Positions 1,342 through 18,355 of a stretch of 64,000 nucleotides of DNA are shown here, in pieces. How positions within the stretch are numbered: the first letter of the stretch is position 1; each line of letters begins with the position of its first letter. Origin of the DNA: Bacteroidales bacterium (GTDB lineage: Bacteria; Bacteroidota; Bacteroidia; Bacteroidales; UBA1556); assembly GCA_023146135.1 (NCBI GenBank), contig JAGLCR010000027.1, positions 609 to 64,608 of the forward strand, read 5' to 3'. The notes below the pieces were generated by a model, which ran no database searches, had not been told where the DNA came from, and worked only from the letters and a program-made list of their open reading frames with translations. The translations under genes and the position numbers were made by a program.

Positions 1342-1345
1342 GATA

Positions 1346-2516: not shown

Positions 2517-2541
2517 TAAATCTGATTTTTATATTTCTTGA

Positions 2542-5397: not shown

Positions 5398-5400
5398 TTT

Positions 5401-5754
5401 TTATTTTCTTTTACGTGCATTGAGATATAGTTTGTTTTTATTCATTGTTCGCCAACCTGATTCTTGTGCAGAATTCACGTAGAATATTTTTATATCAGCT
5501 TCCCCGACACTTTGAACCAGCATATATATAAATCTAGCTCTCGAAGAATCAGCTATATGATACCATACCCCATCTTTCACTATGGTGCATAAAGAATCCG
5601 CTACATAAACATTTATGTCTGCATCAGCCATATTAGAAACCACAAAAAAATTTATATGAGAACTTTGTGATGAATTAGCCTCATAAACTTGCTGAGAGAA
5701 ACCCGAGATGATAAAGACAAATAGTATCACGAGTAGTAGAAATAGTCTTTTCAT
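5401..5754 (-). CDS. Small secreted protein (about 117 aa) with an internal duplicated motif
   Basis: ORF 5401..5832 trimmed to the Met that gives the signal peptide MKRLFLLLVILFVFIISGFSQQ. Two related motifs are present: ADADINVYVADS and GEADIKIFYVNS. The C-terminus is basic (NARKRK). Confidence 0.5.
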   Translation of the reverse strand: MKRLFLLLVILFVFIISGFSQQVYEANSSQSSHINFFVVSNMADADINVYVADSLCTIVKDGVWYHIADSSRARFIYMLVQSVGEADIKIFYVNSAQESGWRTMNKNKLYLNARKRK

Positions 5755-6231
5755 AATGATCTCAATTTGTTTAAGAATATATTTAATTAATTCATGTCGT
5801 AAAATTAGAGGCATAAATAATAACCTTGTCAAAATGCACTATTTTGGAATTATGTGGTAGAATTATCAGAACGAAAGACATCTTTTGGAGTGTAAAGAGC
5901 ATTTTAGACATAGCCTAAAACTAGTGTTCTTGATTTTTTTTGATTTATTGAAAATTTTCGATACAAATATTTGAGATTAAATACATCGTTTTTTTTATCA
6001 AAGACTATCTCTAATTTGTCATTACATTTTTTCTGTTTCTTCACCTCAAAATGCAAAATACGCAGTATTCACTCTTGTCCCTAAGCATTGAGCCAAAAAA
6101 GCAATCAAATTTTTCTAAAGAATAGAATTGCTCTAAATGTCATCTATCTCCCTTATTATGTTATTTGGTATTCCTTTTATGCTTCTTAAGCTCATAATTG
6201 TGCATTTTCTTAACTCAAATATTATTAATCC

Positions 6232-6239
6232 TAATTTTG
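6232..6239 (+). promoter_or_regulatory. Candidate Bacteroidota sigma-A -7 box (TAATTTTG) for the pilus-like operon
   Basis: Exact match to the TAnnTTTG consensus 20 nt upstream of the pilin ATG. A second match, TAAATTTG, lies at 6246-6253. No clean TTTG -33 element was seen. This motif is expected by chance fairly often in AT-rich spacers. Confidence 0.3.
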
Positions 6240-6258
6240 AACCACTAAATTTGTTACA

Positions 6259-6675
6259 ATGAAAAAGATAAAACTATACCGACTAAAAGCGCCTGGCTTT
6301 TCTCTCACAGAATTACTTGTAGTATTAATAATTATTGGGATTCTTGTTTTGGTGGCTCTACCAAACCTACTTCCTCTTATTACAAAAGCTAAGACTGTAG
6401 AGGCAAAGCAGCATTTATCACATATCTATACTCTGGAAAAATCATTTTTTTATATGCACTCAAAATATTCTGACGAACTTGAAGCAATTGATTACATCGC
6501 CGAGAAAACTGTGAAGTCAGGAGGAAGTGCAAACTATGTAATTGAAATCGTTCATGCTAGCTATGATGGGTTTCTTGCCAGAGCTACATCTGTAGTGGAT
6601 TTTGATCAAGATGGAGTACTAAATGTATGGGAAATTGATCAAGACAAAAAACTGATTGAAGTAGTAAAAGACTAG
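6259..6675 (+). CDS. Type IV pilin / pseudopilin, candidate major subunit
   Basis: Class III signal MKKIKLYRLKAPG|FSLTELLVVLIIIGILVLVALPNL with Gly-1, Phe+1 and Glu+5. Followed by KAKTVEAKQHL, typical of the pilin alpha1 helix. 138 aa; first gene of the operon. Confidence 0.85.
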   Translation: MKKIKLYRLKAPGFSLTELLVVLIIIGILVLVALPNLLPLITKAKTVEAKQHLSHIYTLEKSFFYMHSKYSDELEAIDYIAEKTVKSGGSANYVIEIVHASYDGFLARATSVVDFDQDGVLNVWEIDQDKKLIEVVKD

Positions 6676-6698
6676 AGATAACATATTCTTAATGTACG

Positions 6699-7205
6699 AT
6701 GATGATACTATTATTAATATCTATTGCCTTAATTCTAATTCTTGCATACGAAGACTTTCGTAATCGAGAGATTTCAGTAATTTGGATAGCAATCTTTTAT
6801 TTAATAATCCTGATTGAAGTAATCCAAAGCAATAATTGGAGTTTAGAAAACATAATAATTAATGTTATTGTATTCATTTTTTTAGGTCTTGGGGTTGTTA
6901 TTTATAGTATGGTTCGGTGGGGAACTAAAAGGCAGATTATTAACAGAACAATTGGCTTAGGAGATATTCTTTTAGCTCCTAGTTTTATTTTTATTTTCAG
7001 TCCAGCAAACTTTCTAATCTTTCTCAACACAGGTTTTCTCCTCGGAATCATTTTTTATATTCTGAGTAAAAAGAGGAGTGCTAAAATCCCTCTTGCTGGA
7101 ATATTTGCCATGGTTTATTCAATACTTCTGATTACATCAATTGCTCATATAGATTATTCTATTTTGTTTCAGGATGATGTATTAAATATAATTCTACGAG
7201 AGTGA
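6699..7205 (+). CDS. Prepilin peptidase, short A24-family form (168 aa)
   Basis: Polytopic membrane protein carrying the two Asp motifs of the A24 family: LAYEDFRNREIS and IGLGDILLAP (the GxGDxK-like box with Lys replaced by Leu). Too short to contain the N-methyltransferase/Zn domain of PilD/GspO. Confidence 0.65.
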   Translation: MMILLLISIALILILAYEDFRNREISVIWIAIFYLIILIEVIQSNNWSLENIIINVIVFIFLGLGVVIYSMVRWGTKRQIINRTIGLGDILLAPSFIFIFSPANFLIFLNTGFLLGIIFYILSKKRSAKIPLAGIFAMVYSILLITSIAHIDYSILFQDDVLNIILRE

Positions 7206-8632
7206 ATGATGACTTAAAAATATCTGCTAATGTATTACAATTGATTAGTGATAATCAAGCATGGGAATACTATGTAGTCCCAAAAAAGTTTGTGGACAAT
7301 ATACTTACTGTTTATATTAGCGATGATGTAGATGTGAACAGTATTTTGAACGAGCTTGAAATAATTCTAGGTTTTGAAATAGAATATGAAATTCTATCAA
7401 AAGATAAAATCCAAAAATTACTCATAACGAATTATCACAATCATTCAGGTAATAGATCAAGAGAAGATTTATCTATTGAAACAGACTTTCTTCAAAAACT
7501 GATTGAAAGTGCCTATCAGCTAAATTCTAGCGATATACATATTGAACCTTATGAAGAAATATGTAGAGTACGATACCGGCTTGATGGAAGATTACTCGAA
7601 AAGTTTATTATCTCAAAAGATGATTATCCTAGTCTTATAAATAAGATTAAAATTAGAGCAAATCTTGATATTGCTGAGAAAAGAAGGCCGCAAGATGGTC
7701 GTATTAAATACAATTTTGAAAAGACGGATTTAGATATTAGGGTTTCAATAGTACCTACTCTTTTTGGCGAGAAAGCGGTTCTAAGGCTTCTTAAAAAAGA
7801 TACTTCTACTGTCAATTTAGAGAAAATAGGATTTAATAGTCATCAACTTGATATCTATAGAGAAAGTATTCAGAAAGACCATGGAATAGTTCTAATAAGT
7901 GGGCCAACAGGTTCGGGAAAAACCACCACGCTTTATGCTACTTTAAAGCAATTGAATACAGAAACGGTAAATATCTCAACTATTGAAGACCCTATTGAAT
8001 ATACCTTGGAAGGTGTGAATCAAGTGCAGTTGAACCCTAAGATTGGTTTAACATTCTCTTCAGCACTTAGGACTTTTCTTAGACAAGATCCTGATATTAT
8101 TATGCTAGGTGAGATAAGAGATATTGAAACTGCCGAGATGGCGATTAGAGCCGCTTTGACAGGTCACCTTGTACTATCAACCATTCATACTAACTCTGCT
8201 TGGGGAACAATTTCAAGGCTAATTGATATGGGAATCCCATCTTTTTTATTGGCTTCTGTTCTCAATTCTTCTGTTGCTCAGAGATTAATCAGGAAGTTAT
8301 GCAACTCATGCAAAAGCAAGGTTCCTTTAGGCGAAATGCAATTTGAAAGAAAAATCGTTAATGATTTTCAAATAAATATTGATCATTTATACAAGCCTGT
8401 TGGTTGTAAAGAATGCCACTTCACTGGTTATAATGGTCGGATTGCAATTTTCGAGATAATATCTGTTAATCATAACATAGGGGAATGTATTAAGGAGAAT
8501 AAATTTAATATTCAAAATGACATTTCTAACAAAGAATTTCAATCATTATACGATCAAGCCATTATTCATCTAAAGAATGGGAAAACCTCATTTGAAGAAG
8601 TTTATCCAATATTATTGACAAATACTACATAA
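7202..8632 (+). CDS. GspE/PilB-family assembly ATPase
   Basis: Walker A GPTGSGKTTT, Walker B/Asp box DPDIIMLGEIRD, His box GHLVLSTIHTN and a tetracysteine motif CNSC...CKEC. The GTG start overlaps the peptidase stop (GTGA). Confidence 0.9.
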   Translation: MNDDLKISANVLQLISDNQAWEYYVVPKKFVDNILTVYISDDVDVNSILNELEIILGFEIEYEILSKDKIQKLLITNYHNHSGNRSREDLSIETDFLQKLIESAYQLNSSDIHIEPYEEICRVRYRLDGRLLEKFIISKDDYPSLINKIKIRANLDIAEKRRPQDGRIKYNFEKTDLDIRVSIVPTLFGEKAVLRLLKKDTSTVNLEKIGFNSHQLDIYRESIQKDHGIVLISGPTGSGKTTTLYATLKQLNTETVNISTIEDPIEYTLEGVNQVQLNPKIGLTFSSALRTFLRQDPDIIMLGEIRDIETAEMAIRAALTGHLVLSTIHTNSAWGTISRLIDMGIPSFLLASVLNSSVAQRLIRKLCNSCKSKVPLGEMQFERKIVNDFQINIDHLYKPVGCKECHFTGYNGRIAIFEIISVNHNIGECIKENKFNIQNDISNKEFQSLYDQAIIHLKNGKTSFEEVYPILLTNTT

Positions 8633-10510
8633 GTGAATAACAAAATTAAAATACTACTATTTATTTTTATTTTTTCTGGACATAATTTATGGTCTCAGGA
8701 TAGATTTGCTGTTATAAATATTGAATTAAGTAAGTTAGCAAAAACAGTCGATGGATTAAATCAAACTATAGATTTTTCAGCCTCAGGTGCAACTATTCCT
8801 GATTTTGTTAGAGCTCTGGGCCTTAACAATAAAATCAATGTAAGTATAGACCCAAGTATTAATGGTCATGTTGTATATAACTTCTCAGGAGTAGTCGCCA
8901 AAGATATTCTATTATTTCTATGCACTGAATATGATCTTGACATTAAATTGATTGGGTCAATAATATCTATACATAAGTATAGAGCACCTATAATTGAAAT
9001 GAAATACATTCCAAAAGAAATAGATGTTAAGTATAACAGAAAAGAGGAGCTGCTCTCAATCAATCTTCATAATGACAGCCTTTTCTTAGTTGCAAAAGCT
9101 CTTACAAATATTACTGGGAAGAATATAATCTTGAGCCCAAAAGCCAAAAATGTAATTGTTAGTACATATATCACGGAAATGCCAGTAGAAGCGTCTATTT
9201 CAAAATTAGCCTACTCAAATGGTCTTGAGTATAGCTTAACTAAGGATGGTTTTTATCTTCTAAGCATTAGTCAGAATACTAAGTCCAATAATAAAAAAGG
9301 TAACCAAAAGTCAAATGAGACCCAAAGTAAACTTAATGTTACTGTCGAGAATAACCTTATTTCTGTCGAATCATGGAATGCAAATATCTCAGATGTTTTA
9401 ATTGAAGTTTCCGAAGAGTGTGGTGAAAATTATTTCCTGCTCACGCCAATTGAAGAACAAATCACAATGGCAATACACTCGGTTAGTTTTGAAGAGTTCT
9501 TATTATTCATTCTAACGGGAACAGAATATTCATATTCAAGGAATAATGAATCATTCTACATAGGAAAGAAGGATGAAAAAGGACTTAAATTGACAAAAGT
9601 AATTCAGCTTCAACATAGATCAGTTGTTGATTTTTCAAATTATATCCCCTCAAGCCTTAAGTCCGAATTAGAAGTAATTGAGTTTAATGAGCAAAATAGT
9701 TTAATTGTAAATGGCTCATATAGCTTAATCCTCAAGTTGGAGGAGTTTATCCTCTCCGTTGATAAAGTTGTACCAATGGTGATAATTGATATTCTAATAA
9801 TTGATAATAAATCCAACTATACAATCGCAACAGGAATAAGTGCTGGCTTATCAGACAAACCTGTGAATACCTCTGTAAGCTTGTTGCCAGGAGTCGATGT
9901 AACTCTTGGTGCTCAGTCAATAAACCAGCTAATTAACAGCTTTAATGGGTATGGGCTCGTAAACCTTGGTAAAGTTACTCCCAATTTTTACCTTTCAATT
10001 AAAGCTTTAGAAGCCAATGGTGTAATTAAAGTTAAATCAACACCAAAGCTGTCAACACTCAATGGAAGTGAGGCTGAATTAACACTAGGGAATACAACAT
10101 ATTATTATGAAGAGCGGAATGATGTAATTTCAAATCAATCAACACAAAACATAACTACAAAACAGTACAAATCACTGCAAGCGGATTTCAAAGTAACGAT
10201 ACTCCCAATTGTTTCAGGAGATGAACAAGTTACACTTGAAATCACAGTTGACCAGTCAGATTTCACAGGTGAAGTAGTAGATGGCGCTCCACCAGGTCAA
10301 GTTACAAGAAGCTTTTCTTCAGTTGTTAGAGTTAAAAATGGAGAAATGATATTACTAGGAGGGCTGGAAGAAAAAACTAAATCTCAAGAAGCAAGAGGGA
10401 TTCCGATACTAAGTAGAATACCAGTACTAAAATGGCTCTTCTCATCAAGAAAGAAAGAAAAAAAATCGAGCAAATTAAACATATTTATTAAACCAACAAT
10501 AGTCTATTAA
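8633..10510 (+). CDS. Secretin (GspD/PilQ family), 625 aa
   Basis: Signal peptide MNNKIKILLFIFIFSGHNLWSQ. The C-terminal secretin core contains VVRVKNGEMILLGGLEEKTKSQEARGIPILSRIPVLKWLFSSR and NIFIKPTIV. The GTG start immediately follows the ATPase stop. Confidence 0.85.
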   Translation: MNNKIKILLFIFIFSGHNLWSQDRFAVINIELSKLAKTVDGLNQTIDFSASGATIPDFVRALGLNNKINVSIDPSINGHVVYNFSGVVAKDILLFLCTEYDLDIKLIGSIISIHKYRAPIIEMKYIPKEIDVKYNRKEELLSINLHNDSLFLVAKALTNITGKNIILSPKAKNVIVSTYITEMPVEASISKLAYSNGLEYSLTKDGFYLLSISQNTKSNNKKGNQKSNETQSKLNVTVENNLISVESWNANISDVLIEVSEECGENYFLLTPIEEQITMAIHSVSFEEFLLFILTGTEYSYSRNNESFYIGKKDEKGLKLTKVIQLQHRSVVDFSNYIPSSLKSELEVIEFNEQNSLIVNGSYSLILKLEEFILSVDKVVPMVIIDILIIDNKSNYTIATGISAGLSDKPVNTSVSLLPGVDVTLGAQSINQLINSFNGYGLVNLGKVTPNFYLSIKALEANGVIKVKSTPKLSTLNGSEAELTLGNTTYYYEERNDVISNQSTQNITTKQYKSLQADFKVTILPIVSGDEQVTLEITVDQSDFTGEVVDGAPPGQVTRSFSSVVRVKNGEMILLGGLEEKTKSQEARGIPILSRIPVLKWLFSSRKKEKKSSKLNIFIKPTIVY

Positions 10511-11712
10511 TGGTAGAGATAGTAGATAATATAATCAAATCCTTCAAAAAGGAAAGATATGGACTGCATATTTGTCTTAAAAAAGACAAGCAGATTGAAT
10601 ATTATTTATTACATATTAAGCAGTCAAAAAATAGTGTGAAAATTCTAAATAAGTTCTCAACAACTGAATTTGATTTATTAAAAAAAGCCTTGACAGAAAG
10701 GCTTCCTATTTCAATTTACATTTCTGGAAATGGGGTGCTAATAAAAAAAACAAAGGAGAAAATAGAGACTAACGATGACTTATTCAAAAATTTATTCAGA
10801 AATATTGATTCTGATAAATTTTACATTCAGAGCAATCTGCAATTTGAATACAAATGGATTGCTATTATTAGTAAAGACGCAATACAACCTATTCTTAGAG
10901 AAATCCTTAAATTGAATGTTTTTATGCTTGGGGTTACAATTATTCCACCAATAACGGTTGAAAGCATCCCATTACCTGTCTCACACGATGAAGTACTATT
11001 TGGTGATAAAGTGCTAATTTTCAATAACTATTTAACTGCTATTGAGCAAACCACACAAGTGAAGGAATATGAGCTTTTAAACTGTAGTATTTCAAGTAGA
11101 TTCTTACCTTCATTCTTTATTTCAACTTTTTTGAAAGATAGACATCTAAGTAATTATTTTGATTCGGAGTTCTCTAGCGAGAAAGATTACAAAATATATC
11201 AAGCTTATAATAAAATAATTGGCTATTCGGCTGTACTCTTGCTAATACTACTTTCACTTAATTTTGCTACAATCTCATATTATAACAATCAGATTAACTA
11301 CCAAAAAGAATCGCTTCTACGAAGTGAAGCATCTCTCAAACAAATAAATGAATTAAAAAATGCTAGAAATAAGAAAAGGAGATTTGTTGAAACTCAAAAT
11401 GTCCAGAAAGGTGCTCATCATTGTATGTATATAAACGAGATATCTAGGGTCGTTCCTAACAATATAATACTAAACTCAATAACAATTTCACCAATAAGAT
11501 TCAAATCAAATAAGCTCAGTATTGATCAAAACTCCATCATAATAGAAGGGGTTTCTTATGATGGAATTGGTGTTACGGAGTTTATAAAATATATAAAAGA
11601 ATTCAGTTGGGTGGAATCAATAAAATTAGTCAGTTATAAAAAGAATAAAGAGAATAGCAATTCCATATTTCAGCTGAAAATTGACTTGTCGAAAGGAGAG
11701 AGCGATGAATAA
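10510..11712 (+). CDS. GspL-like assembly protein (PilM-like cytoplasmic part + TM + PilN-like periplasmic part)
   Basis: 400 aa with a single TM segment (IIGYSAVLLLILLSLNFATISYY) at about aa 240. This is followed by a coiled coil and a PilN-type C-terminus (IILNSITISP..IIIEGVSYDGIGVTEFIKYIKEFSWVESIKL). The ATG overlaps the secretin stop (TAATG). Assigned from architecture only. Confidence 0.5.
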   Translation: MVEIVDNIIKSFKKERYGLHICLKKDKQIEYYLLHIKQSKNSVKILNKFSTTEFDLLKKALTERLPISIYISGNGVLIKKTKEKIETNDDLFKNLFRNIDSDKFYIQSNLQFEYKWIAIISKDAIQPILREILKLNVFMLGVTIIPPITVESIPLPVSHDEVLFGDKVLIFNNYLTAIEQTTQVKEYELLNCSISSRFLPSFFISTFLKDRHLSNYFDSEFSSEKDYKIYQAYNKIIGYSAVLLLILLSLNFATISYYNNQINYQKESLLRSEASLKQINELKNARNKKRRFVETQNVQKGAHHCMYINEISRVVPNNIILNSITISPIRFKSNKLSIDQNSIIIEGVSYDGIGVTEFIKYIKEFSWVESIKLVSYKKNKENSNSIFQLKIDLSKGESDE

Positions 11713-12256
11713 GAAGATAAACTACCATTTTCGCCTAGTTTTAACAATTGCTGGAGTGATTACAACATATTTGTTAAGCTATAATTATAGTTTCTCTGAC
11801 TCAATAATACTCAAGAATGAACATATCAATAACCAACATAAGATTCAAGAATTAAAAAATGCACCAATAATAATTTTAAATTTGACAAAGGAAATAGCTC
11901 AGCTAGATGATATTATAAATATCGAGGATACTACATCTCAGGATTCAAGAAAGAGAATCATTGACTATACAGAATCAAGCTGCAAAGAACTAGACCTTTC
12001 TCTTATCGAGCTTACAGAACCTCTTATTCATACTCAAGAGAATTATATAATAACATATAATAGATTGGTCATTGAAGGCGATTATTTTCAATTAGTAAAA
12101 TTCATTTATGAGCTTGAAACAGTAACTACTAATATGATAATAATCTCAATAAGAATGTATTCCAAGAAAGAAAAAATTAGCAAGAAAACTAAGATATATT
12201 CAGAAATAGTATTTCAAACCATTAAAGATAAGGAAGGAGAATATGAAAACGTATAA
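11705..12256 (+). CDS. PilO/GspM-like assembly protein
   Basis: ORF 11681..12256 trimmed to MNKKINYHFRLVLTIAGVITTYLL (N-terminal TM). Followed by a coiled coil and an LVIEGDYFQLVKFIYELE motif like those in PilO/GspM. Overlaps the upstream gene by 8 nt. Confidence 0.45.
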   Translation: MNKKINYHFRLVLTIAGVITTYLLSYNYSFSDSIILKNEHINNQHKIQELKNAPIIILNLTKEIAQLDDIINIEDTTSQDSRKRIIDYTESSCKELDLSLIELTEPLIHTQENYIITYNRLVIEGDYFQLVKFIYELETVTTNMIIISIRMYSKKEKISKKTKIYSEIVFQTIKDKEGEYENV

Positions 12257-13217
12257 ACCATATATATTCAATCAATTAGGAGTAGTTGCAGTTGTCTTTC
12301 TATTGCTATTATTCTTTTCATGCTCAAAAATATTTGAGGAAGATTTAAGCGACAAAACAATAATTATCAATATGCCTATTGATAAATATGCTTCTAGTAG
12401 TTCATTTATGCAATTTTGGTGGGAAGGGATAGATGAATCAACCCATTACAAAATTCAAATAGTAAAACCAGATTTTGACACTATTCATAAACTATTAGTG
12501 GACTCTAATCTAACGAATAATAAGTTTGAGTGGTCATTTTCACCTGGAGAATACGAATGGCGTATTCAAGCTCATAACTCAACCAGTTTCTCTGTATTTC
12601 AAACATATAGTTTTAAAATTGACAGCTCTCTAGATCTCACAAATTCTAATATTGTACTTATTACCCCACAAAATAACACCTATTTAAATGATGTTTCAAT
12701 AAAATATGAGTGGCTAAAAGAGTATAATGCAGATTATTACATCTTCTCCATATATAACTCACTCAATATTCCTGTAGTTAATAACCAGAAATTATATATT
12801 CAAGAAATAATTATTCCTGGTCAAGAGATAAAGGATACGCTACAAGATGGGTATTATAAGTGGAGTGTGTTTGCTGAAAATTCAACTTCTACAAGTCCTA
12901 CAAGCACTTCATATTTTACTATTGACCGCTTAGAGCCAAGCTTACCTATTCTAATTAAGCCAAGTGCTTATATACATCAAAGTGGTCACCAAACCACATT
13001 TCAATGGATTTCAGGATCAGATGTTAATTATTCTTTTGATAGTTTAAAATTATATAGCGATTCAAATCTAATTACTCTTAAAAAAGCATATAAAGTTTCA
13101 ACTAACAATATATCAGACTCCCTTTCTTCAGGGGCGTACTTTTGGTTTGTAAGAACTTTTGATAAAGCGGGAAATAGAAGCTCTATAAGTGAAATACGAA
13201 AATTAACAATCAACTAA
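12243..13217 (+). CDS. Lipoprotein with three roughly 95-aa beta-sandwich-like repeats
   Basis: Lipobox LLLFFSCS. Three repeats span aa 38-127, 133-228 and 229-324. Each has a (F/Y)xW core, a GxYxW motif (GEYEWRIQA, GYYKWSVFA, GAYFWFVRT) and ends F.ID/TIN. Confidence 0.6.
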   Translation: MKTYKPYIFNQLGVVAVVFLLLLFFSCSKIFEEDLSDKTIIINMPIDKYASSSSFMQFWWEGIDESTHYKIQIVKPDFDTIHKLLVDSNLTNNKFEWSFSPGEYEWRIQAHNSTSFSVFQTYSFKIDSSLDLTNSNIVLITPQNNTYLNDVSIKYEWLKEYNADYYIFSIYNSLNIPVVNNQKLYIQEIIIPGQEIKDTLQDGYYKWSVFAENSTSTSPTSTSYFTIDRLEPSLPILIKPSAYIHQSGHQTTFQWISGSDVNYSFDSLKLYSDSNLITLKKAYKVSTNNISDSLSSGAYFWFVRTFDKAGNRSSISEIRKLTIN

Positions 13218-13229
13218 TTAGTATCATTA

Positions 13230-13733
13230 ATGAAATTTTTTAGAAAATATAAATTAATTATTCTAGTTGCCCTAACGACTCTCCTTTATGGATTAATAGG
13301 GGTTGAGATTAAAGACACCATTCTTTCTAAGAATAACTTTATCACAGATACATACCAGATGATTAATACTTCACAAGCAAATGATAGTGGTTTATATGAT
13401 CTTAATCTAGATTATCGAAACCCTTTTTTTATTGAGAACATTATAAAATCAAGAAAAACATCAAAACTAAATAGCAGAAGACCTGCACGTAAAAATATAA
13501 ATAAACAAAAGAATAAAGCCAATGGCATTAAACCTAAGACTTCGAAATGGCCTCAACTAACTCTTCATGCAATTATCCATGGTGAAGCTAATAAAATTTG
13601 TGTAATAGAATTGGATGGGACTGAAATTGTTGCAAGAGAATATGAGCAATTCTTTAACTGTAAAATCATTAAGATTCATAAAGATTCTGTTTCAATTGTA
13701 TTTAATGATGAACTAAAGATATTTAAATTATGA
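13230..13733 (+). CDS. PilP/GspC-like protein (TM anchor, basic linker, small C-terminal beta domain)
   Basis: N-terminal TM KLIILVALTTLLYGLIGV and a Lys/Arg-rich linker. The C-terminal LTLHAIIHGEANKICVIELDGTEIVAREYEQFFNCKIIKIHKDSVSIVFNDE resembles the PilP/GspC HR-domain pattern (from memory). Confidence 0.4.
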   Translation: MKFFRKYKLIILVALTTLLYGLIGVEIKDTILSKNNFITDTYQMINTSQANDSGLYDLNLDYRNPFFIENIIKSRKTSKLNSRRPARKNINKQKNKANGIKPKTSKWPQLTLHAIIHGEANKICVIELDGTEIVAREYEQFFNCKIIKIHKDSVSIVFNDELKIFKL

Positions 13734-14452
13734 TTAAGAAGATACTGATATTAAGTACGATAATATTTTTCTTTTCAGTGCCAGCACTTTGTAAAGATGC
13801 CTTAAATAGTAGAATCGTAATCGTTAATACCGACAGCTCTTATATTGTTGCATACGTTTCAAATTCGACTAAAGAACACTCTAAAAACTTAAAAGACGAT
13901 TTATGTTACTCTTGGTATCGCAGAAATAACATAATTAATACATATGGTAATTACAGCGGAGCAATATTAGATGGAGCATATACTGAATATGACTTAAAAG
14001 GGAACCTACTATCAAAAGGTATTTATGCTCAGGGATTAAAACATGAAAAATGGTATTTCTGGTCACATGGTGGTGCTTTTCTTAGAACTGTAAGTTATAA
14101 GCATGGTAAGCTTATGGGAGAATCAATACACTATGATAATCATGGCAATCCCATTTATAAAGCACTTTATAGAAATGGAAAACAAATAGGTCTATCCATA
14201 AAGTTCGTTGATAGTATAATCGTCTCAAAAACAATGTATAGAAAGGGACGAGTTAGTAGAGTTGAATACTACGAATATGGTAAGAAAATGAAAGTTATTC
14301 ATTATTCAAAATTCGGAGAAGTGAAAGAGGCGAAAAAAAAGAAAACAAAAAATCCCCAAAAGGCGGATGATAGTAGTGTAAAAATAGAAGATGATATTTC
14401 TTCTAACAAAAATTCTAAAAAAGGGTTTTGGAGAAATATACTTAAAAAATAG
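13730..14452 (+). CDS. Secreted MORN-repeat (YwqK-like) protein with a Lys-rich tail
   Basis: Signal peptide MIKKILILSTIIFFFSVPALC. Tandem MORN-variant units are visible (LDGAYTEYDLKGNLLSKGIYAQGLKHEKWYFWSHGG..VSYKHGKLMGESIHYDNHGNPIYKALYRNGKQIG). ATGA overlap with the upstream gene. Confidence 0.6.
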   Translation: MIKKILILSTIIFFFSVPALCKDALNSRIVIVNTDSSYIVAYVSNSTKEHSKNLKDDLCYSWYRRNNIINTYGNYSGAILDGAYTEYDLKGNLLSKGIYAQGLKHEKWYFWSHGGAFLRTVSYKHGKLMGESIHYDNHGNPIYKALYRNGKQIGLSIKFVDSIIVSKTMYRKGRVSRVEYYEYGKKMKVIHYSKFGEVKEAKKKKTKNPQKADDSSVKIEDDISSNKNSKKGFWRNILKK

Positions 14453-15691
14453 ATGATGAAGAAACGATTGAAAGGATATAGCCTACCCTGGGCAATTTTC
14501 ATAATGGTTATTGTATCGATTATGTTAAGCTCATTGATTCTGCTACGTTCAATTTCTCGTGATGTTTATAATCGAACTAAACTTAGTTGCAGTTTAATTA
14601 GCGACGTAGATTATGGTATTGAATATGGATTATCACAAACATCTGATATCCTAGATTCTATAATGTTAAATGGCCCAAATCCCATTATAGTAAAAAGAAG
14701 TACATGGGGATATTTCAATATTGTATTTGTGTCAGGGCAATACAATAAGTTTTATAAGTCAAAAGCTATAATATCATCATCATTAATTTCAAAGACTAAA
14801 ACGCCATCACTTGTTGTTAATCAGGCAAGAAGTACTGTGTCATTAACGGGGAACACATTAATTGAGGGAAATATTTTCGTGCCAAAAGGATACCTGGAAA
14901 GAGCCTATATTGAAGGTAAGTCATTCTCTAGGAAAAAACTCTGCAGAGGAAAAATAATGGACTCAAAGCTGTATATCGATTATTTTGATAGAAAATCATT
15001 CGTTGATAGATATAAATCGATTATTTCAAGTGTTCATAGCAAAAAGTCTATGATAAATAATGTTAAATTTGATTCACTATTAAATAGCTTTGGTAATGAA
15101 ACTATAGTACTCTACAACAGTTCTTTCATCAATCTTAAAAATATTAATCTTTCTGGAAATATTATAGTCAGATCTGATTCATTAATTGTAATAAAGAAGA
15201 ACTGTATAATAAAAAATTCTATTATTTCTGCGCCAATTATAGTAATTGAAGACGGTTTTATAGGGCAGGTACAAATTATTGCTAATGACAGTGTTCATAT
15301 TGGAGAAAAGGTGCAACTTGGCTTTCCATCAGCTATAATTTTAACTGATCCAAGTGGTATTGACTCATACATTACTATTGAAAAGAGAAGTATAATTGAC
15401 GGGTTCATTTATGCAATTTCCAGCAATAGAAGTTTAATATCGATATCAGATAAAGCATTGGTTAATGGACATATTTATTCAAACTCATGTGTAGATTGTA
15501 GAGGCACAATAAATGGCTCATTAATATGTAATAAGCTCACAACCAAGACTAAATCTTCATTCTATGAAAGTATTCTTATTGATACAAAAATATCAAACAT
15601 AGAAACTTCAAATATGATATTGGCAGGTTTAGCCTTTAGTAATAAAACTAATGAGCAAGCATTAATTGAATTGAAATCATATAGCAAATAA
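14453..15691 (+). CDS. Pseudopilin-like (GspK/PilX-like, no Glu5) N-terminus fused to a beta-helix-like body, 412 aa
   Basis: N-terminus MMKKRLKG|YSLPWAIFIMVIVSIMLSSLILL has a pilin-type hydrophobic helix after Gly, with Trp where Glu+5 would sit. The body has short repetitive strands rich in I/V/N/G (NLSGNIIVRSDSLIVIKKNCIIKNSIISAPIIVIEDGFIGQVQIIANDSVHIGEKVQLG...). Confidence 0.5.
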   Translation: MMKKRLKGYSLPWAIFIMVIVSIMLSSLILLRSISRDVYNRTKLSCSLISDVDYGIEYGLSQTSDILDSIMLNGPNPIIVKRSTWGYFNIVFVSGQYNKFYKSKAIISSSLISKTKTPSLVVNQARSTVSLTGNTLIEGNIFVPKGYLERAYIEGKSFSRKKLCRGKIMDSKLYIDYFDRKSFVDRYKSIISSVHSKKSMINNVKFDSLLNSFGNETIVLYNSSFINLKNINLSGNIIVRSDSLIVIKKNCIIKNSIISAPIIVIEDGFIGQVQIIANDSVHIGEKVQLGFPSAIILTDPSGIDSYITIEKRSIIDGFIYAISSNRSLISISDKALVNGHIYSNSCVDCRGTINGSLICNKLTTKTKSSFYESILIDTKISNIETSNMILAGLAFSNKTNEQALIELKSYSK

Positions 15692-15729
15692 TGGGAACAT
15701 TCATGGCATAATAACTTAAAAAACAAAAT

Positions 15730-16116
15730 ATGGCATTGCTTAAACCATACAAATTATCTGAGAAAAGAATTAAAGCTTTTACATTAATTGAGTCTTTAAT
15801 CTCCTTAACTATTATTACGGCAATTTTTTCCATTGCCTTAATTAGTTATTCAAATCTAATAAATCCAAAGCATGAGTTAATGCAACTCAAAGCATTTATT
15901 ACCATGGAAAGAATTAAAGTAGAGATAATGAAAGAAGACCTTCCTCTTGAATTAATCTTCGAAAAAGAGAAATCAGTTGCCTTGCAAATTGATTATGATT
16001 TATCCAAGTTGCCTAATTCATTGTACCAGTTAAAAATAAGAATTAGTTCAAACACAAACAAAGAGCTAATATCTGAGTTGATAATTCTAAGAAACTACGA
16101 AACATGGAGTCCTTAA
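15730..16116 (+). CDS. Minor pilin / pseudopilin
   Basis: Class III-type signal MALLKPYKLSEKRIKA|FTLIESLISLTIITAIFSIAL with Ala-1, Phe+1 and Glu+5. Confidence 0.7.
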   Translation: MALLKPYKLSEKRIKAFTLIESLISLTIITAIFSIALISYSNLINPKHELMQLKAFITMERIKVEIMKEDLPLELIFEKEKSVALQIDYDLSKLPNSLYQLKIRISSNTNKELISELIILRNYETWSP

Positions 16117-16604
16117 ACATCTCATTTACATATAAATATAGAGGGTTTTCAATTCTTGAATTATTAATAGTGATGATAATAAGCACCACGATAATATCTT
16201 CGTCTTTTTATATTTATGATAATATCCTAAAATACAGGACGAAACAGCAAATATTTCATGAAAAAACTATGATTTTAAAAAAATTATTCGTAGATTTGAA
16301 ACATCAGTTTGTTAGCTGTGAAAGTTTAAAAATAAATGAGAATACTGTATCTTTTGTCACAAATTTTAACGTTGAGTATGAATTCTGCTCTGATTATTTA
16401 TTAAATAAATCTCAACTTACTGATACTCTATTTCTTGATATAATTGAACTAAAGGCTTATTATAATTCAATAGAATTGCACAAAGGAACTATTGATGAAA
16501 TAAGAATTTTGGCAACATTAGATGATGAAATAATTGAGATGGCATTTTTTAAAAAATATCCATATTTTCAAAAAGTGCTAATTGAGAATAAAATGAAAAA
16601 CTAA
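16104..16604 (+). CDS. Minor pilin / pseudopilin
   Basis: Class III signal MESLNISFTYKYRG|FSILELLIVMIISTTII with Gly-1, Phe+1 and Glu+5. Overlaps the upstream gene by 13 nt. Confidence 0.75.
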   Translation: MESLNISFTYKYRGFSILELLIVMIISTTIISSSFYIYDNILKYRTKQQIFHEKTMILKKLFVDLKHQFVSCESLKINENTVSFVTNFNVEYEFCSDYLLNKSQLTDTLFLDIIELKAYYNSIELHKGTIDEIRILATLDDEIIEMAFFKKYPYFQKVLIENKMKN

Positions 16605-16613
16605 AGCCCGTAT

Positions 16614-17708
16614 ATGATACTAAATACTTTTAATAGAATACTAAATTTTGAGATTAAACTTAAGAAGTCTAAGCTTAAAGACATTAAGAAAAAGGAGTTG
16701 TTTAGTAATCTTGCTATATTGTTGAATACAGGAATAAATATTAAGGATTCCTTGGATATCTTATTGAATGACTTCTCGAATGATAAAGATACTATTCGGG
16801 CTTTAGAGTCAATTAGGGAATCTATTAGTAATGGAAAGTCGCTTGCTTTCGCATTTGAAAAGACAAATGCTTTTATTAAATATGAAGTTTTTAATATTAA
16901 AATAGGAGAAGAGACTGGAAAACTTGCAATTACAGTAATTAATCTATCTGATTATCTCAACAAGCGAATTGAATTACGTAGAAAGGTATCAAGTGCACTG
17001 TCATATCCGATTATAGTATTTATTACAGCAATCTTGGCAGTCATTTTCATGCTCACTTTTGTAGTGCCAATGTTTGAAGATATTTTTAATCGCTTTGGAC
17101 ATGAGCTGCCTTATCTAACGCAACTAATAATTGATCTATCGGATAATATTATTTGGATAGTTTTATTTGTTTTGATTATTACTTTCTCATTCATAATCAT
17201 TAACTATTCCCTAAGGTCTTCAAATACATACCAACTACACAAGTCAAAAATGATTCTGTCTATTCCTGTTGTTGGTAATATTATTAGAAAAATTCACTTA
17301 GGCAGATTCTCTTCAGCAATGGAACTTTTTATTTCTGCGAATATTCCAATTCATGAATCAATAGCTCTAATTAGGGAAATGAGTTCTTTCTATTCTCTCA
17401 AAGCAGCATTAAACCAGATCGAACACAAGTTAGTTATCGGAGATAATTTTCATGATGCGGTTAACTCTCAAGCATTTTTTGATAAGCGAATGGTAGCAAT
17501 GATTAAAGTTGGAATGGAAACAAACCGGTTAGAAGAAATCTTTAAGCTTTCAAAAGAAAACTATCACGAAGACATAACATACAATACAACTATTTTAAAT
17601 AATATATTAGAACCTATTTTGATAATATTCATTGGCTTAATAGTCGCAACTATTCTAATTGGCATGTACTTACCCATTTTTAAGCTCAGCATGTCTTTTA
17701 ATATTTAA
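16614..17708 (+). CDS. GspF/PilC-family inner-membrane platform protein
   Basis: 364 aa with two repeats of the T2SSF-type cytoplasmic domain plus TM segments (SLAFAFEKT..EVFNIKIGEETGKL and NFHDAVNSQAFFDKRMVAMIKVGMETNRLEEIF). C-terminal TM EPILIIFIGLIVATILIGMYLPIFKL. Confidence 0.85.
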   Translation: MILNTFNRILNFEIKLKKSKLKDIKKKELFSNLAILLNTGINIKDSLDILLNDFSNDKDTIRALESIRESISNGKSLAFAFEKTNAFIKYEVFNIKIGEETGKLAITVINLSDYLNKRIELRRKVSSALSYPIIVFITAILAVIFMLTFVVPMFEDIFNRFGHELPYLTQLIIDLSDNIIWIVLFVLIITFSFIIINYSLRSSNTYQLHKSKMILSIPVVGNIIRKIHLGRFSSAMELFISANIPIHESIALIREMSSFYSLKAALNQIEHKLVIGDNFHDAVNSQAFFDKRMVAMIKVGMETNRLEEIFKLSKENYHEDITYNTTILNNILEPILIIFIGLIVATILIGMYLPIFKLSMSFNI

Positions 17709-17731
17709 TATAAACCTTAAAACAACTTATT

Positions 17732-18064
17732 ATGTGTATTCTAGTAAAAACAAATAGAGGAGTTGAATTCATTAGAATTGAATCAATTATCTCAATCGAA
17801 TCAATTGGCAAAGTGACAGAAATCTATATGGATTATGAAACAGTGGTTACCAAGCAGTCACTATCAAGTTTCTTAGACGCAAACTTAGGCTGCCTTCAAC
17901 AGGTAAATAGAACTACAATAGTAAACATAAACAGAATAAAGAAAATCAATATTAATGGTGTTATTCTTATTGTAATTAATGAAAAGCCTAAAACAATAAA
18001 AGTAACGAGAAGCTTCAAAGGAAAATTCATGAATTTAATTAAATCTGAATTTGTTACGATATAA
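17732..18064 (+). CDS. Stand-alone LytTR-type DNA-binding domain protein (110 aa, no receiver)
   Basis: FIRIESIISIES..VTEIYMDYETVVTKQSLSSFLD..LQQVNRTTIVNINRIKKIN follows the LytTR pattern (i..I.yie...i.t....sl..le..F.r.HRS.IVN...I). The usual HRS is replaced by NRT. Confidence 0.55.
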   Translation: MCILVKTNRGVEFIRIESIISIESIGKVTEIYMDYETVVTKQSLSSFLDANLGCLQQVNRTTIVNINRIKKININGVILIVINEKPKTIKVTRSFKGKFMNLIKSEFVTI

Positions 18065-18183
18065 TGTAATACCCCACCAATTATAATCGAAAAAATAACA
18101 TTGTAACATTTTCAGAGAGTAAGGACGTCTAATTTGCATAGAGTTTTCCTCTTTATTGCCATGATTAACGGGATTTATTTCAC

Positions 18184-18225
18184 GAAAAACAAAGAGGGAC
18201 TAACTGATATAGCTAATCCCTCTTT
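18184..18225 (-). terminator. Rho-independent terminator downstream of tRNA-Ser
   Basis: Perfect 9-bp stem aaagaggga (18191-18199) / tccctcttt (18217-18225). On the minus strand it is followed by GTTTTTCG. Confidence 0.5.
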
Positions 18226-18267
18226 TAGTCCCTGTAGCTTGTATATTCTTGATAATCAAGCTATATT

Positions 18268-18355
<88 letters not shown>

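What the first reader, a model, noticed from the sequence alone, without database searches (positions are those of the whole stretch)
6259..18064. Compact 14-gene type IV filament (T4P/T2SS-like) operon with a hybrid, non-canonical parts list
Fourteen same-strand genes are packed with six start/stop overlaps, and every gap is 38 nt or less. They encode a class-III-signal pilin (KAPG|FSLTELLVVL), a 168-aa A24 peptidase, and a GspE/PilB ATPase (GPTGSGKTTT, CNSC..CKEC). They also encode a secretin (GIPILSRIPVLKWLF), a GspL-like PilM+TM+PilN fusion, and PilO/GspM-like and PilP/GspC-like proteins. The set is completed by two minor pilins (RIKA|FTLIESL, KYRG|FSILELL), a Glu5-less pseudopilin-like 412-aa protein and a GspF/PilC platform. 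This is not a textbook set. T2SS-like traits include the L-type fusion, a C-like protein, a K-like Glu5-less subunit, and no PilT/PilU retraction ATPase anywhere in the 64 kb. These coexist with a T4aP-style major pilin and a Tad/archaeal-sized peptidase lacking the methyltransferase domain. Three inserted genes (12243-15691) have no counterpart in characterised machines, and the operon ends with a LytTR-only protein. Bacteroidota are known for T9SS and type V pili, and to my knowledge filament machines of this superfamily are barely characterised in the phylum. The output (pilus, secretion or DNA uptake) is therefore open.
Basis: partly seen in the sequence, partly recalled or inferred. Interest (0 to 1): 0.8.

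Follow-up and report, generated by a model that had tools for sequence, protein, structure and literature searches.

The report
Bacteroidota-type type IV filament machine operon
This is an intact, typical copy of the Bacteroidota-specific relative of type II secretion and type IV pilus machines, a gene cluster first described in Cytophaga hutchinsonii whose output (most likely protein export) is still not established.

Summary
Fourteen same-strand genes lie at 6259-18064, with six overlaps and no gap above 38 nt. All quoted motifs are present, and there is no second PilB/PilT-type ATPase in the 64 kb.

The locus is not a one-off hybrid. Genes 1-13 have positional orthologues, in the same or a circularly permuted order, in Bacteroidota of several orders. 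The order also matches the published 'putative T2SS' cluster of Cytophaga hutchinsonii, Flavobacterium johnsoniae and Pedobacter heparinus. Denise et al. 2019 already flagged that cluster as a peculiar lineage that fits neither T2SS nor T4aP models.

The supposedly inserted genes are conserved parts of this machine:
- a lipoprotein with three FN3 domains;
- a PilP/GspC-HR-like protein;
- a MORN-repeat periplasmic protein;
- a 412-aa Glu5-less beta-helix minor pilin.

A high-confidence AlphaFold model shows that the 400-aa protein has GspL architecture. Only the LytTR gene is specific to this lineage.

The most likely function is a non-retractile, T2SS-like endopilus export machine. This is inferred, not shown.

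New here: genes for giant SpvB-N/RHS-type proteins lie next to the operon in 13 of 16 loci examined. They are possible cargo.

Verdict: new member of a known, poorly characterised kind.

The parts
5833..6258 (.). 426-nt divergent intergenic region upstream of the pilin gene; presumed promoter region
   Evidence: It is the only long non-coding gap next to the operon. Two TAnnTTTG motifs lie at 6232-6239 and 6246-6253. The motif is not enriched in the window (106 found, 95.5 expected), so this is weak evidence.
6259..6675 (+). g01 major pilin (138 aa): class III signal KAPG|F, Glu+5, no Cys, conserved C-terminal EF-hand-like loop DFDQDGVLNVWE
   Evidence: Pfam N_methyl. The family profile best matches the M. 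xanthus PilA alpha-1 helix (8tj2, 8.8e-16), with GspG at 4.9e-7. In 10 orthologues there is no Cys, and the motif D-F-[DN]-x-[DN]-G-x4-W-[EQ] is conserved.
6699..7205 (+). g02 short A24-type prepilin peptidase (168 aa) with no N-terminal methyltransferase domain
   Evidence: Pfam Peptidase_A24 at 1.3e-4, below the gathering score. The orthologues are 155-183 aa and both Asp residues are invariant. A canonical PilD in L046 is 263 aa.
7202..8632 (+). g03 assembly ATPase (476 aa): one N-terminal T2SSE_N/MshEN-type domain, Walker A, tetra-Cys motif
   Evidence: T2SSE at 1.8e-129. PilB 500.8 bits and GspE 490.4 bits are both below their cutoffs. The protein is identical to MCK5856735.1, from a MAG labelled Bacteroidales bacterium.
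8633..10510 (+). g04 secretin (625 aa); no AMIN domains detected, no S-domain after the secretin core
   Evidence: Pfam Secretin at 4.6e-37, with weak N0, STN and Secretin_N hits. The best PDB sequence matches are phage pIV and GspD (about 2e-15), ahead of PilQ (about 1e-9).
10510..11712 (+). g05 GspL-like assembly protein (400 aa): cytoplasmic truncated actin-like domain, TM and long helix, periplasmic ferredoxin-like PilN/GspL-C domain
   Evidence: AlphaFold2 with a 143-sequence alignment gives pLDDT 91.4. The top Foldseek hits are GspL cytoplasmic domains 4pht, 1yf5, 1w97 and 5tkw (E 1.7e-7 to 1.4e-5), followed by FtsA and PilM. The periplasmic part matches EpsL, XcpY and PulL C-terminal domains and PilN. 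Pfam finds PilN at 308-390.
11681..12256 (+). g06 PilO/GspM-like bitopic protein (191 aa from TTG; an ATG at 11705 is an alternative start)
   Evidence: The top PDB hit of the 9-sequence profile is M. xanthus PilO (3jc8, E 0.02, covering 48-163). The position after the L-like gene is conserved. Support is moderate.
12243..13217 (+). g07 lipoprotein with three FN3-type domains (324 aa); clade-specific accessory
   Evidence: Cys27 is invariant. The profile hits titin FN3 (7.1e-9) and ChiA1 FN3 (5.3e-5). Orthologues occur in 11 loci; the Alistipes copy has one repeat.
13230..13733 (+). g08 PilP/GspC-HR-like protein (167 aa): N-terminal TM, conserved NYR[DN]PF motif, C-terminal beta domain, no PDZ
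   Evidence: Alignment of 11 orthologues. hhalign against GspC gives prob 54%, P 1.3e-4, over the HR region, and against PilP gives P 2e-3. There is a weak PDB hit to OutC at the same region. Support is moderate.
13730..14452 (+). g09 exported MORN-repeat protein with a Lys-rich tail (240 aa); clade-specific accessory
   Evidence: The profile hits the MORN-repeat N-domain of SET7/9 (about 5e-4). Orthologues occur in 9 further loci and there is none in Alistipes. Precomputed Pfam gives a faint MORN_2 hit in L099 and L102.
14453..15691 (+). g10 large Glu5-less minor pilin-like protein (412 aa): N-terminal hydrophobic helix (RLKG|YSLPW) followed by a beta-helix domain
   Evidence: The family HMM also picks up the small minor pilins. 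The AlphaFold model is poor overall (pLDDT 54), but it has helix 10-67 and a confident beta-helix at about 220-360. There is no significant PDB match, and the T2SSK and PilX_N families are not detected.
15730..16116 (+). g11 minor pilin (128 aa), RIKA|FTLIE
   Evidence: Pfam N_methyl; weak ComGE, ComGD and GspI hits.
16104..16604 (+). g12 minor pilin (166 aa), KYRG|FSILE
   Evidence: Pfam N_methyl; orthologues identified.
16614..17708 (+). g13 GspF/PilC inner-membrane platform (364 aa)
   Evidence: T2SSF at 5.7e-39 with two repeats. GspF scores 219 bits against a cutoff of 424.
17732..18064 (+). g14 LytTR-only DNA-binding protein (110 aa); lineage-specific add-on and putative regulator
   Evidence: LytTR at 2.6e-10. 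It is present only in the window and its near-identical contigs L001 and L002. A LytTR response regulator with a LytS-type kinase, or such a kinase alone, lies next to the system in L100 and L102.
1..5832 (-). Divergent neighbour block, possibly associated: 5' part of a giant SpvB-N-type protein (1-1345), a 226-aa protein, an OmpH/Skp-like chaperone (1989-2516), a 951-aa exported protein and a DUF6150 protein (5401-5832)
   Evidence: Pfam. The block recurs beside the operon in L085, L083, L102 and, in part, L091 and L087. This is association only.

Best explanation
The operon encodes the Bacteroidota-specific lineage of the type IV filament superfamily. This is the machine published as the 'putative T2SS' of Cytophaga hutchinsonii.

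Shown here:
- All core parts are present and intact.
- The 13-gene set is conserved across orders.
- The 400-aa protein has GspL architecture.
- The peptidase is the short form without a methyltransferase domain.

Inferred mechanism:
1. The peptidase g02 cleaves, without N-methylating, the prepilins g01, g11 and g12, and perhaps g10.
2. The hexameric ATPase g03 docks on the cytoplasmic domain of g05 and on the platform g13.
3. g05 and g06 pair in the periplasm.
4. g08 links this platform to the secretin g04.
5. g10-g11-g12 prime the filament, in a GspK/I/J-like role.
6. g01, probably stabilised by Ca2+ through its EF-hand-like loop, polymerises behind them.

With no retraction ATPase and an L/M/C-type platform, the filament most likely stays short. 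It would then act as a T2SS-like endopilus that pushes folded periplasmic proteins through the secretin to the cell surface or the medium.

g07 (FN3 lipoprotein) and g09 (MORN protein) are clade-specific periplasmic or outer-membrane accessories of unknown role. g14 (LytTR) is a local regulator. Identity as a member of this clade has probability about 0.9. Protein export as the output has probability about 0.5.
For: Composition.

Synteny: orthologues of g01-g13 occur in Tenuifilaceae (L084), Acidiluteibacter (L086), Alistipes (L003), L085, L099, L101 and L102. A circularly permuted order occurs in L089, L091 and L097. Gene numbering in Table 2 of PMC5553014 (Phep_1100-1112; Fjoh_0611-0622; CHU_3191-3202) reproduces these two orders.

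Spread: the GspL-like protein family has 1599 clusters at 50% identity with E<=1e-3, nearly all about 400 aa.

GspL fold.

PilO-like and PilP/GspC-like signals.

No PilT-like gene lies in the window or within +/-10 kb in 8 other loci.

The pilin is small and Cys-free, with a conserved EF-hand-like loop. A Ca site in place of a disulfide is a trait of T2SS endopili (abstract of PMC13081927).

Genetics elsewhere: C. hutchinsonii secretin, pilin and platform mutants show altered outer-membrane and cellulose-bound proteins, lower beta-glucosidase activity and reduced adhesion, with normal motility (PMC5553014).

All ORFs are intact and the contig is chromosomal, carrying dnaA, yidC and gyrB/parE.
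Against: - No secretion substrate is known for any member.
- The C. hutchinsonii phenotypes are indirect and could come from loss of an adhesive pilus.
- Denise et al. 2019 place the Cytophaga system with T4aP and away from T2SS.
- The pilin alpha-1 helix is closest to M. xanthus PilA.
- My rough NJ tree leaves the ATPase clade unplaced: 46% of replicates put it with the T2SS sample and 16% with T4aP subsets.
- PilT could be encoded elsewhere in the genome.
- There is no GspH equivalent, no PDZ on the C-like protein, and no T2SSK domain in g10.
- I did not compare the window proteins directly with CHU, Fjoh or Phep sequences because they were not retrievable. That link rests on gene order, sizes and domains.
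Confidence: 0.55

Rival explanations
1. It builds a true surface pilus for adhesion or aggregation. The pilus would be either non-retractile or retracted without a dedicated motor.
For: - The pilin helix is most like M. xanthus PilA.
- Denise et al. place the lineage among T4aP.
- C. hutchinsonii mutants adhere less well to cellulose.
- The large beta-helix minor pilin g10 could be a tip adhesin.
Against: - The platform is L/M/C-type rather than separate PilM and PilN.
- No PilT is nearby in 9 loci.
- No AMIN domains or PilY1 were detected.
- The F. johnsoniae cryo-ET excerpts describe secretin-like complexes and mention no pilus emerging from them.
- C. hutchinsonii mutants showed no cell-morphology difference by EM.
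Confidence: 0.22
2. It is a DNA-uptake (competence) pilus machine.
For: - The minor pilins give weak ComGD, ComGE and ComGF hits, and the pilin gives a weak ComP_DUS hit (precomputed Pfam).
- Competence machines can work without PilT.
- Some Bacteroidota are naturally transformable.
Against: - All Com hits are far below their cutoffs and fall in the generic N-terminal helix.
- No ComEA, ComEC, ComF or DprA turned up among the operon's immediate neighbours or the larger window ORFs scanned with Pfam. The scan did not cover every ORF.
- Naturally competent Riemerella is reported to lack pilus homologues, and F. johnsoniae, which carries the cluster, was not transformable.
Confidence: 0.08
3. It is a dedicated export or display system for the giant SpvB-N/RHS-type proteins encoded beside it. 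That would make it a contact-dependent antagonism or adhesion route.
For: - A gene for a protein of at least 986 aa lies beside the operon, usually within about 5 kb, in 13 of 16 loci, on either side and either strand.
- True RHS toxins (RHS_repeat, DUF6443, Rhs_assc_core, with an Imm26 gene downstream in one case) occur in L084, L086, L090, L096 and L089.
- An SpvB-N-type 'family X' occurs in the window, L085, L083, L087, L091 and L102.
- Calls: 23, 25, 95-99, 103, 104, 107, 108.
Against: - This is adjacency only.
- L100 and L101 lack such a gene within 10 kb.
- The loci were not sampled at random, and RHS genes often sit in variable regions.
- The window's own giant gene is cut by the window edge.
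- A secretin pore of T2SS size would have to pass a very large folded cocoon.
Confidence: 0.15

Closest known systems
'Putative T2SS' of Cytophaga hutchinsonii (CHU_3191-3202) and its equivalents Fjoh_0611-0622, Phep_1100-1112 and Odosp_1507/1522-1529 (Wang et al. 2017, PMC5553014)
   Same: - Same phylum.
- Same core set: G, a short A24 O, E, D, F, two small minor pilins, and three or four unannotated membrane proteins with remote PilM/N/O/P similarity.
- The window order G-O-E-D-x-x-x-x-x-x-minor-minor-F equals the 13 consecutive Phep genes.
- The permuted order seen in L089, L091 and L097 equals the Fjoh and CHU order.
   Different: - The window adds a LytTR-only gene at the 3' end.
- The C/L/M labels in that paper are shifted relative to what I find. 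The gene after the secretin is the GspL-like one, the next is M/O-like, and the C/P-like one is two genes further on.
Canonical proteobacterial T2SS (GspC-O)
   Same: - GspL-type fused platform protein.
- M-like and C(HR)-like partners.
- A secretin with a GspD-like core and no AMIN domains.
- A single ATPase with a tetra-Cys motif and no retraction ATPase.
- A small Cys-free major subunit with a probable Ca site.
- A large Glu5-less minor subunit.
   Different: - No Gsp equivalog model reaches its cutoff.
- Three rather than four minor pilins.
- g10 has a beta-helix in place of the GspK fold.
- No PDZ on the C-like protein.
- The peptidase lacks the methyltransferase domain.
- The pilin helix is closer to PilA.
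- The ATPase clade is separate (100/100 monophyly).
- There are two extra conserved genes (FN3 lipoprotein, MORN protein).
Type IVa pilus machine (PilABCDMNOPQT)
   Same: - PilA-like alpha-1 helix (8tj2, 8.8e-16).
- PilO-like and PilP-like proteins.
- Per Denise et al. 2019, the Cytophaga representative branches with T4aP.
   Different: - No PilT or PilU nearby.
- PilM and PilN are fused into a GspL-like protein.
- No AMIN domains, PilY1, TsaP or pilotin were recognised.
- The pilin has no disulfide-bonded D-region.
- The genes form one compact operon rather than several loci.
Tad/archaeal-type prepilin peptidases (TadV, CpaA, FlaK)
   Same: g02 is about 160 aa, has two conserved Asp residues (the second in a GxGD motif) and has no methyltransferase domain.
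   Different: The rest of the machine is not Tad-like. It has a PilB/GspE-type ATPase, a single two-repeat GspF platform, and no Flp-type pilin.

Membership tests
Type IV filament superfamily ('generic' model of Denise et al. 2019) | PilB/GspE-family ATPase, GspF/PilC platform and a class III signal pilin encoded together | tested here: met
   T2SSE at 1.8e-129, T2SSF at 5.7e-39, and N_methyl with G|F...E5; definition
Type IV filament superfamily ('generic' model of Denise et al. 2019) | Accessory secretin and prepilin peptidase | tested here: met
   Secretin at 4.6e-37. The A24 hit is sub-threshold, but both Asp residues are invariant.
Bacteroidota 'putative T2SS' lineage (C. hutchinsonii type) | Conserved gene content and order G-O-E-D, then unannotated platform genes, minor pilins and F (or its circular permutation), in Bacteroidota | tested here: met
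   Orthologue tables, extra loci, and a match to the locus-tag series in Table 2 of PMC5553014
Bacteroidota 'putative T2SS' lineage (C. hutchinsonii type) | Sequence orthology to the CHU_3195, 3196, 3198 and 3199 proteins themselves | not tested
   Those sequences could not be retrieved: they were not among the 120 listed ATPase hits, and the single genome scan was saturated by other phyla.
Bacteroidota 'putative T2SS' lineage (C. hutchinsonii type) | ATPase forms a clade with other Bacteroidota system ATPases, apart from canonical GspE and PilB | tested here: met
   NJ tree with 100/100 bootstrap monophyly of 9 Bacteroidota sequences against 74 others. The method is rough and the sampling biased.
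Canonical T2SS | GspD, E, F and G recognised by curated equivalog models | tested here: not met
   GspE 490 vs 630 bits, GspD 128 vs 351, GspF 219 vs 424, GspG 29.6 vs 88.9
Canonical T2SS | GspL: cytoplasmic actin-like domain, TM, periplasmic ferredoxin-like domain | tested here: met
   pLDDT 91.4 model. The top Foldseek hits are GspL, EpsL and PulL domains.
Canonical T2SS | Four minor pseudopilins H, I, J and K, with a GspK-fold subunit, and GspC with HR plus PDZ or coiled coil | tested here: not met
   There are only three minor pilins. No T2SSK family hit for g10, no GspK match by hhalign, and no PDB match. g08 has an HR-like domain only.
Type IVa pilus | Retraction ATPase PilT | tested here: not met
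   No second ATPase in the 64 kb or within +/-10 kb of 8 other loci. The rest of the genome is not available.
Type IVa pilus | Separate PilM and PilN, and a PilQ with AMIN domains | tested here: not met
   Fused GspL-like g05. No AMIN hit in g04. PilQ subfamily scores 102.7 vs 284 bits.
Type IVa pilus | PilA-type major pilin | tested here: inconclusive
   The alpha-1 helix matches PilA best. The globular part matches nothing, there is no disulfide, and the PilA_Myxo model scores 54.9 vs 400 bits.
Com (competence) and MSH pili | ComGA, GB and GC or MshL equivalogs | tested here: not met
   ComGA 274.7 vs 300, ComGB 143.8 vs 240, ComGC 26.3 vs 75, MshL 110.5 vs 250

The most novel reading that the evidence does not exclude
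The Bacteroidota lineage of type IV filament machines is a secretion or display system in its own right. It would have arisen independently of the proteobacterial T2SS, with a GspL-like platform acquired or converged. Its dedicated cargo would be the giant SpvB-N/RHS-type polymorphic proteins encoded next to it in most loci, which would make it a previously unrecognised route for contact-dependent antagonism or adhesion in the phylum. The FN3 lipoprotein, the MORN protein and the neighbouring Skp-like chaperone would be its cargo-handling parts.
Probability: 0.15. Interest if true: 0.85.

Novelty: new member of a known kind. Interest (0 to 1): 0.45.

Why it matters
Bacteroidota are studied mainly for T9SS, T6SSiii and type V pili. 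Their type IV filament machine is widespread: the GspL-like subunit alone has about 1600 clusters at 50% identity. Yet it rests on one genetic study and one cryo-ET observation.

Denise et al. raised the possibility that it is a protein secretion system evolved from T4aP independently of the T2SS. A resolved parts list gives concrete handles for testing what the machine exports or builds. That list now includes:
- GspL-fold platform protein;
- short non-methylating peptidase;
- pilin with an EF-hand-like loop;
- beta-helix Glu5-less minor pilin;
- two clade-specific accessory proteins;
- a recurrent link to giant RHS-type genes.

This particular window adds one more intact example rather than a new kind of system.

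Tried and rejected
1. The word-index protein search with the 400-aa protein, and with a concatenated g05+g10 alignment, returned only 3 close relatives each. No deep alignment for g10 could be made, and its AlphaFold model is poor (pLDDT 54). Its Foldseek hits are generic beta-helices with E>=0.09 and were disregarded.

2. The single genome-contig scan with the ATPase was saturated by PilB/GspE of other phyla. It gave only one Bacteroidota locus (Alistipes). The other 79 loci were reused as T4aP and T2SS references.

3. HMM profile searches of PDB sequences with g05 found nothing, using 8 and then 143 sequences. Sequence-level hhalign against PilM was not significant. Only the structure prediction resolved the N-domain.

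4. The sigma-70 promoter and terminator scan was no better than shuffles. The Bacteroidetes-type TAnnTTTG motif is not enriched.

5. I considered that the locus is a mobile or plasmid-borne island. I rejected this because the contig carries dnaA, yidC, gyrB/parE and murein ligase genes, and the GC content is similar to the flanks, though slightly lower at 0.28-0.33.

6. I considered that the system is decayed. I rejected this for the window because all 14 ORFs are intact. The relative L085 is decayed: it has an IS between g05 and g06, and g10 is split.

7. Cluster look-ups for taxon names of g05 relatives returned only 'hypothetical protein'.

8. Literature searches for newer functional work on the Bacteroidota system, for DUF6443, and for RHS with T2SS or T4P in Bacteroidetes found nothing beyond the three papers cited.

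Full report
**Observation**

The window carries 14 consecutive + strand ORFs between 6259 and 18064. The junctions are 23, -4, 0, -1, -32, -14, 12, -4, 0, 38, -13, 9 and 23 nt. That gives six overlaps and no gap above 38 nt.

Pfam recognises the following:
- three N_methyl pilins;
- a T2SSE ATPase (1.8e-129);
- a secretin (4.6e-37);
- a PilN domain at the C-terminus of the 400-aa protein;
- a T2SSF platform (5.7e-39);
- a LytTR protein (2.6e-10).

The 168-aa protein hits Peptidase_A24 only below the gathering score. Its two catalytic Asp positions (D21, and D88 in GLGD) are nevertheless invariant in nine orthologues of 155-183 aa. The absence of the methyltransferase domain is therefore a family trait.

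A tblastn with the ATPase finds no second PilB/PilT-type gene in the 64 kb.

One detail is wrong in the finding.

**Source**

The ATPase is identical to MCK5856735.1 from a MAG labelled Bacteroidales bacterium. The contig is a 70.7-kb metagenome scaffold. The rest of the window is ordinary chromosome, with dnaA, yidC, gyrB/parE-type, Mur ligase and glutamate dehydrogenase genes.

**Typing**

No curated NCBIfam equivalog is reached:
- PilB scores 500.8 bits against a cutoff of 675.
- GspE scores 490 against 630.
- GspD scores 128 against 351.
- GspF scores 219 against 424.
- GspG scores 30 against 89.
- ComGA, ComGB, ComGC and MshL are also below their cutoffs.

This agrees with the literature. 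Denise et al. 2019 state that the 'so-called T2SS of Bacteroidetes (represented by Cytophaga)' always clusters with T4aP and away from T2SS. Their models do not identify it, and it may be a secretion system derived from T4aP independently (PMC6668835).

**Conservation**

ATPase relatives of 50-70% identity are all Bacteroidota where they carry a name: Flagellimonas, Acidiluteibacter, Tenuifilaceae, Crocinitomicaceae and Cytophagaceae.

I fetched loci around several of them, and around relatives of the 412-aa protein. Orthologues of g01-g13 occur as follows:
- The same order as the window is seen in Tenuifilaceae (L084), Acidiluteibacter ferrifornacis (L086) and L101. L102 differs only in having the MORN gene g09 moved ahead of the pilin gene.
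- The order is kept in a decayed copy, L085, which has an IS between g05 and g06 and a split g10.
- Alistipes (L003) has the set without g09 and with a one-repeat g07.
- A circular permutation, g09-g10-minor-minor-F-G-O-E-D-g05-g06-g07-g08, occurs in L089, L091 and L097.
- A split, divergent form occurs in L099.

The two orders reproduce the consecutive locus tags that Wang et al. 2017 list for Pedobacter heparinus (Phep_1100-1112) and for F. johnsoniae and C. hutchinsonii (Fjoh_0611-0622, CHU_3191-3202) (PMC5553014).

The 'hybrid parts list' is therefore the normal composition of a phylum-wide machine, and the middle genes are integral to it. Only the LytTR gene is lineage-specific. LytTR regulators or LytS-type kinases also sit beside the system in L100 and L102.

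A full HMMER scan with the 400-aa protein finds 1599 clusters at 50% identity with E<=1e-3. Nearly all are about 400 aa long and align over their full length.

**Parts**

*g05 (400 aa).* Sequence methods saw only the PilN-like C-terminus. AlphaFold2 with a 143-sequence alignment gave pLDDT 91.4. Foldseek against the PDB gave these results:
- The best hits are cytoplasmic domains of GspL, EpsL and PulL (4pht, 1yf5, 1w97, 5tkw; E 1.7e-7 to 1.4e-5).
- FtsA and PilM follow.
- The periplasmic domain matches EpsL, XcpY and PulL C-terminal domains (target TM-score 0.70-0.77) and PilN.

*g06 (191 aa).* The nine-sequence profile has M. xanthus PilO as its top PDB hit (E 0.02).

*g08 (167 aa).* It has an N-terminal TM segment, a nearly invariant NYR[DN]PF motif and a C-terminal beta domain. 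That domain aligns with the GspC HR region (hhalign prob 54%, P 1.3e-4) and with PilP (P 2e-3). There is also a weak OutC hit at the same place. No PDZ domain is present.

*g07 (324 aa).* It is a lipoprotein (invariant Cys27) with three FN3 domains.

*g09 (240 aa).* It is an exported MORN-repeat protein with a Lys-rich tail.

*g10 (412 aa).* It starts with a pilin-like hydrophobic helix that lacks Glu5 (RLKG|YSLPW). Its family HMM cross-detects the small minor pilins. The only confidently modelled part is a beta-helix at about 220-360. It matches no solved structure and no GspK or PilX family. I read g10-g11-g12 as the filament-priming complex by analogy with GspK-I-J. This is an inference.

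*g01 (major pilin).* It has an alpha-1 helix closest to M. xanthus PilA (8.8e-16, against GspG at 4.9e-7). Ten orthologues contain no cysteine. All keep a C-terminal loop, D-F-[DN]-x-[DN]-G-x4-W-[EQ], that fits the 12-residue EF-hand pattern. A Ca site in place of a disulfide is a feature of T2SS endopili (abstract of PMC13081927).

*g04 (secretin).* The core is nearer to phage pIV and GspD than to PilQ in PDB sequence searches.

*g03 (ATPase).* A rough NJ tree of 84 ATPases makes the Bacteroidota sequences monophyletic in 100/100 replicates. Their position relative to the sampled T2SS and T4aP groups is left unresolved.

**Function**

What is shown is a complete, conserved machine with an L/M/C-type platform and no retraction ATPase, either in the window or within 10 kb of it in eight other loci.

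Elsewhere, C. hutchinsonii mutants in the secretin, pilin and platform genes grow late on cellobiose and cellulose. They have altered outer-membrane protein profiles, lower beta-glucosidase activity and reduced adhesion, but normal motility. F. johnsoniae shows secretin-like complexes by cryo-ET.

I therefore favour a T2SS-like endopilus that exports folded periplasmic proteins (about 0.5). A non-retractile adhesive pilus comes next (about 0.2). A competence pilus is unlikely (under 0.1): no com genes turned up in the parts of the window that were scanned, and the Com-type hits are generic helix matches.

**A lead beyond the finding**

Genes for giant proteins sit beside the operon in 13 of 16 loci with usable flanks.
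- True RHS toxins occur in L084, L086, L090, L096 and L089. They carry RHS_repeat, DUF6443, LTD and Rhs_assc_core, and one is followed by an Imm26 gene.
- An uncharacterised 1.8-2.2-kaa 'family X' occurs in the window (1-1345, cut by the edge), L085, L083, L087/88, L091 and L102. Its SpvB-type N-terminus is shared with the L084, L003 and L096 proteins (hhalign prob 95.8%).
- An unrelated giant gene occurs in L099.
- Calls: 23, 25, 95-99, 103, 104, 107, 108.

An OmpH/Skp-like gene accompanies family X, and in L087 it lies directly upstream of g09. L100 and L101 lack such neighbours.

This is adjacency only, from a non-random sample. It does give a testable candidate cargo.

**Verdict**

The locus is a new member of a known, poorly characterised kind.

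Noticed in passing
window 1-1345 (-); L001 1-4140; L085 1-3116; L083 1-2054; L087 8484-14024; L091 245-6595; L102 1-868; L084 1-7963; L086 481-5916; L090 548-5020; L096 14938-21120; L003 1211-4171; L099 17727-21437: Genes for giant proteins lie beside the filament operon in 13 of 16 loci, on either side and either strand. Some are true RHS toxins; others belong to an unannotated 1.8-2.2-kaa family with an SpvB-type N-terminus. They are possible cargo or partners of the machine.
   Followed up: partly
window 1989-2516 (-); L083 2709-3242; L085 3790-4317; L102 1460-1993; L087 2967-3455: An OmpH/Skp-like periplasmic chaperone gene recurs next to the system. In L087 and L088 it sits immediately upstream of the MORN gene on the same strand.
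   Followed up: partly
window 1346-5832 (-): The divergent block of DUF6150 ('Septknot') protein, 951-aa exported protein, OmpH and 226-aa protein is conserved beside the operon in L085 and L102, and partly in L083 and L091. The 951-aa protein has no family hit. Only its C-terminal ~100-130 residues are shared with the large neighbour genes in L091 and L102.
   Followed up: partly
L085 13337-20002: A 67%-identical relative of the system is decaying. A DDE transposase gene is inserted after a truncated g05 (335 aa), and g10 is split into fragments of 88 and 207 aa.
   Followed up: no
L089, L091, L097 (whole loci); L099 4908-17662: The 13-gene set also exists as a circular permutation starting with g09-g10-minor-minor-F, and as two divergent half-operons (L099). 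The set is kept while the order is shuffled at one or two breakpoints.
   Followed up: partly
window 6259-6675, residues 114-125: The major pilin carries a canonical 12-residue EF-hand-type loop (DFDQDGVLNVWE). The loop is conserved in all 10 orthologues, and none of them has a cysteine.
   Followed up: partly
window 17732-20825; L100 12703-14486; L102 19607-21440: LytTR-type regulation recurs at the edge of the system. The window has a LytTR-only protein followed, after a tRNA gene, by a TPR histidine kinase. L100 has a LytTR response regulator with a LytS-type kinase. L102 has a Reg_prop/His_kinase protein.
   Followed up: no
window 18268-18355 (-): A tRNA-Ser(GCT) gene lies just downstream of the operon. 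The 88-aa ORF at 18134-18400 (+ strand) overlaps this tRNA gene and is probably not a real gene.
   Followed up: yes
window 42305-43729 (+): dnaA lies 24 kb from the operon, so the locus is close to the likely replication origin. The cumulative GC skew has a minimum near 40-44 kb.
   Followed up: no
PMC5553014 Table 2 versus window 10510-13733: The C, L and M labels given to the C. hutchinsonii, F. johnsoniae and P. heparinus genes appear shifted. By predicted structure, the gene directly after the secretin is the GspL-like one. The next is M/O-like, and the C/P-like gene is two genes further on.
   Followed up: partly
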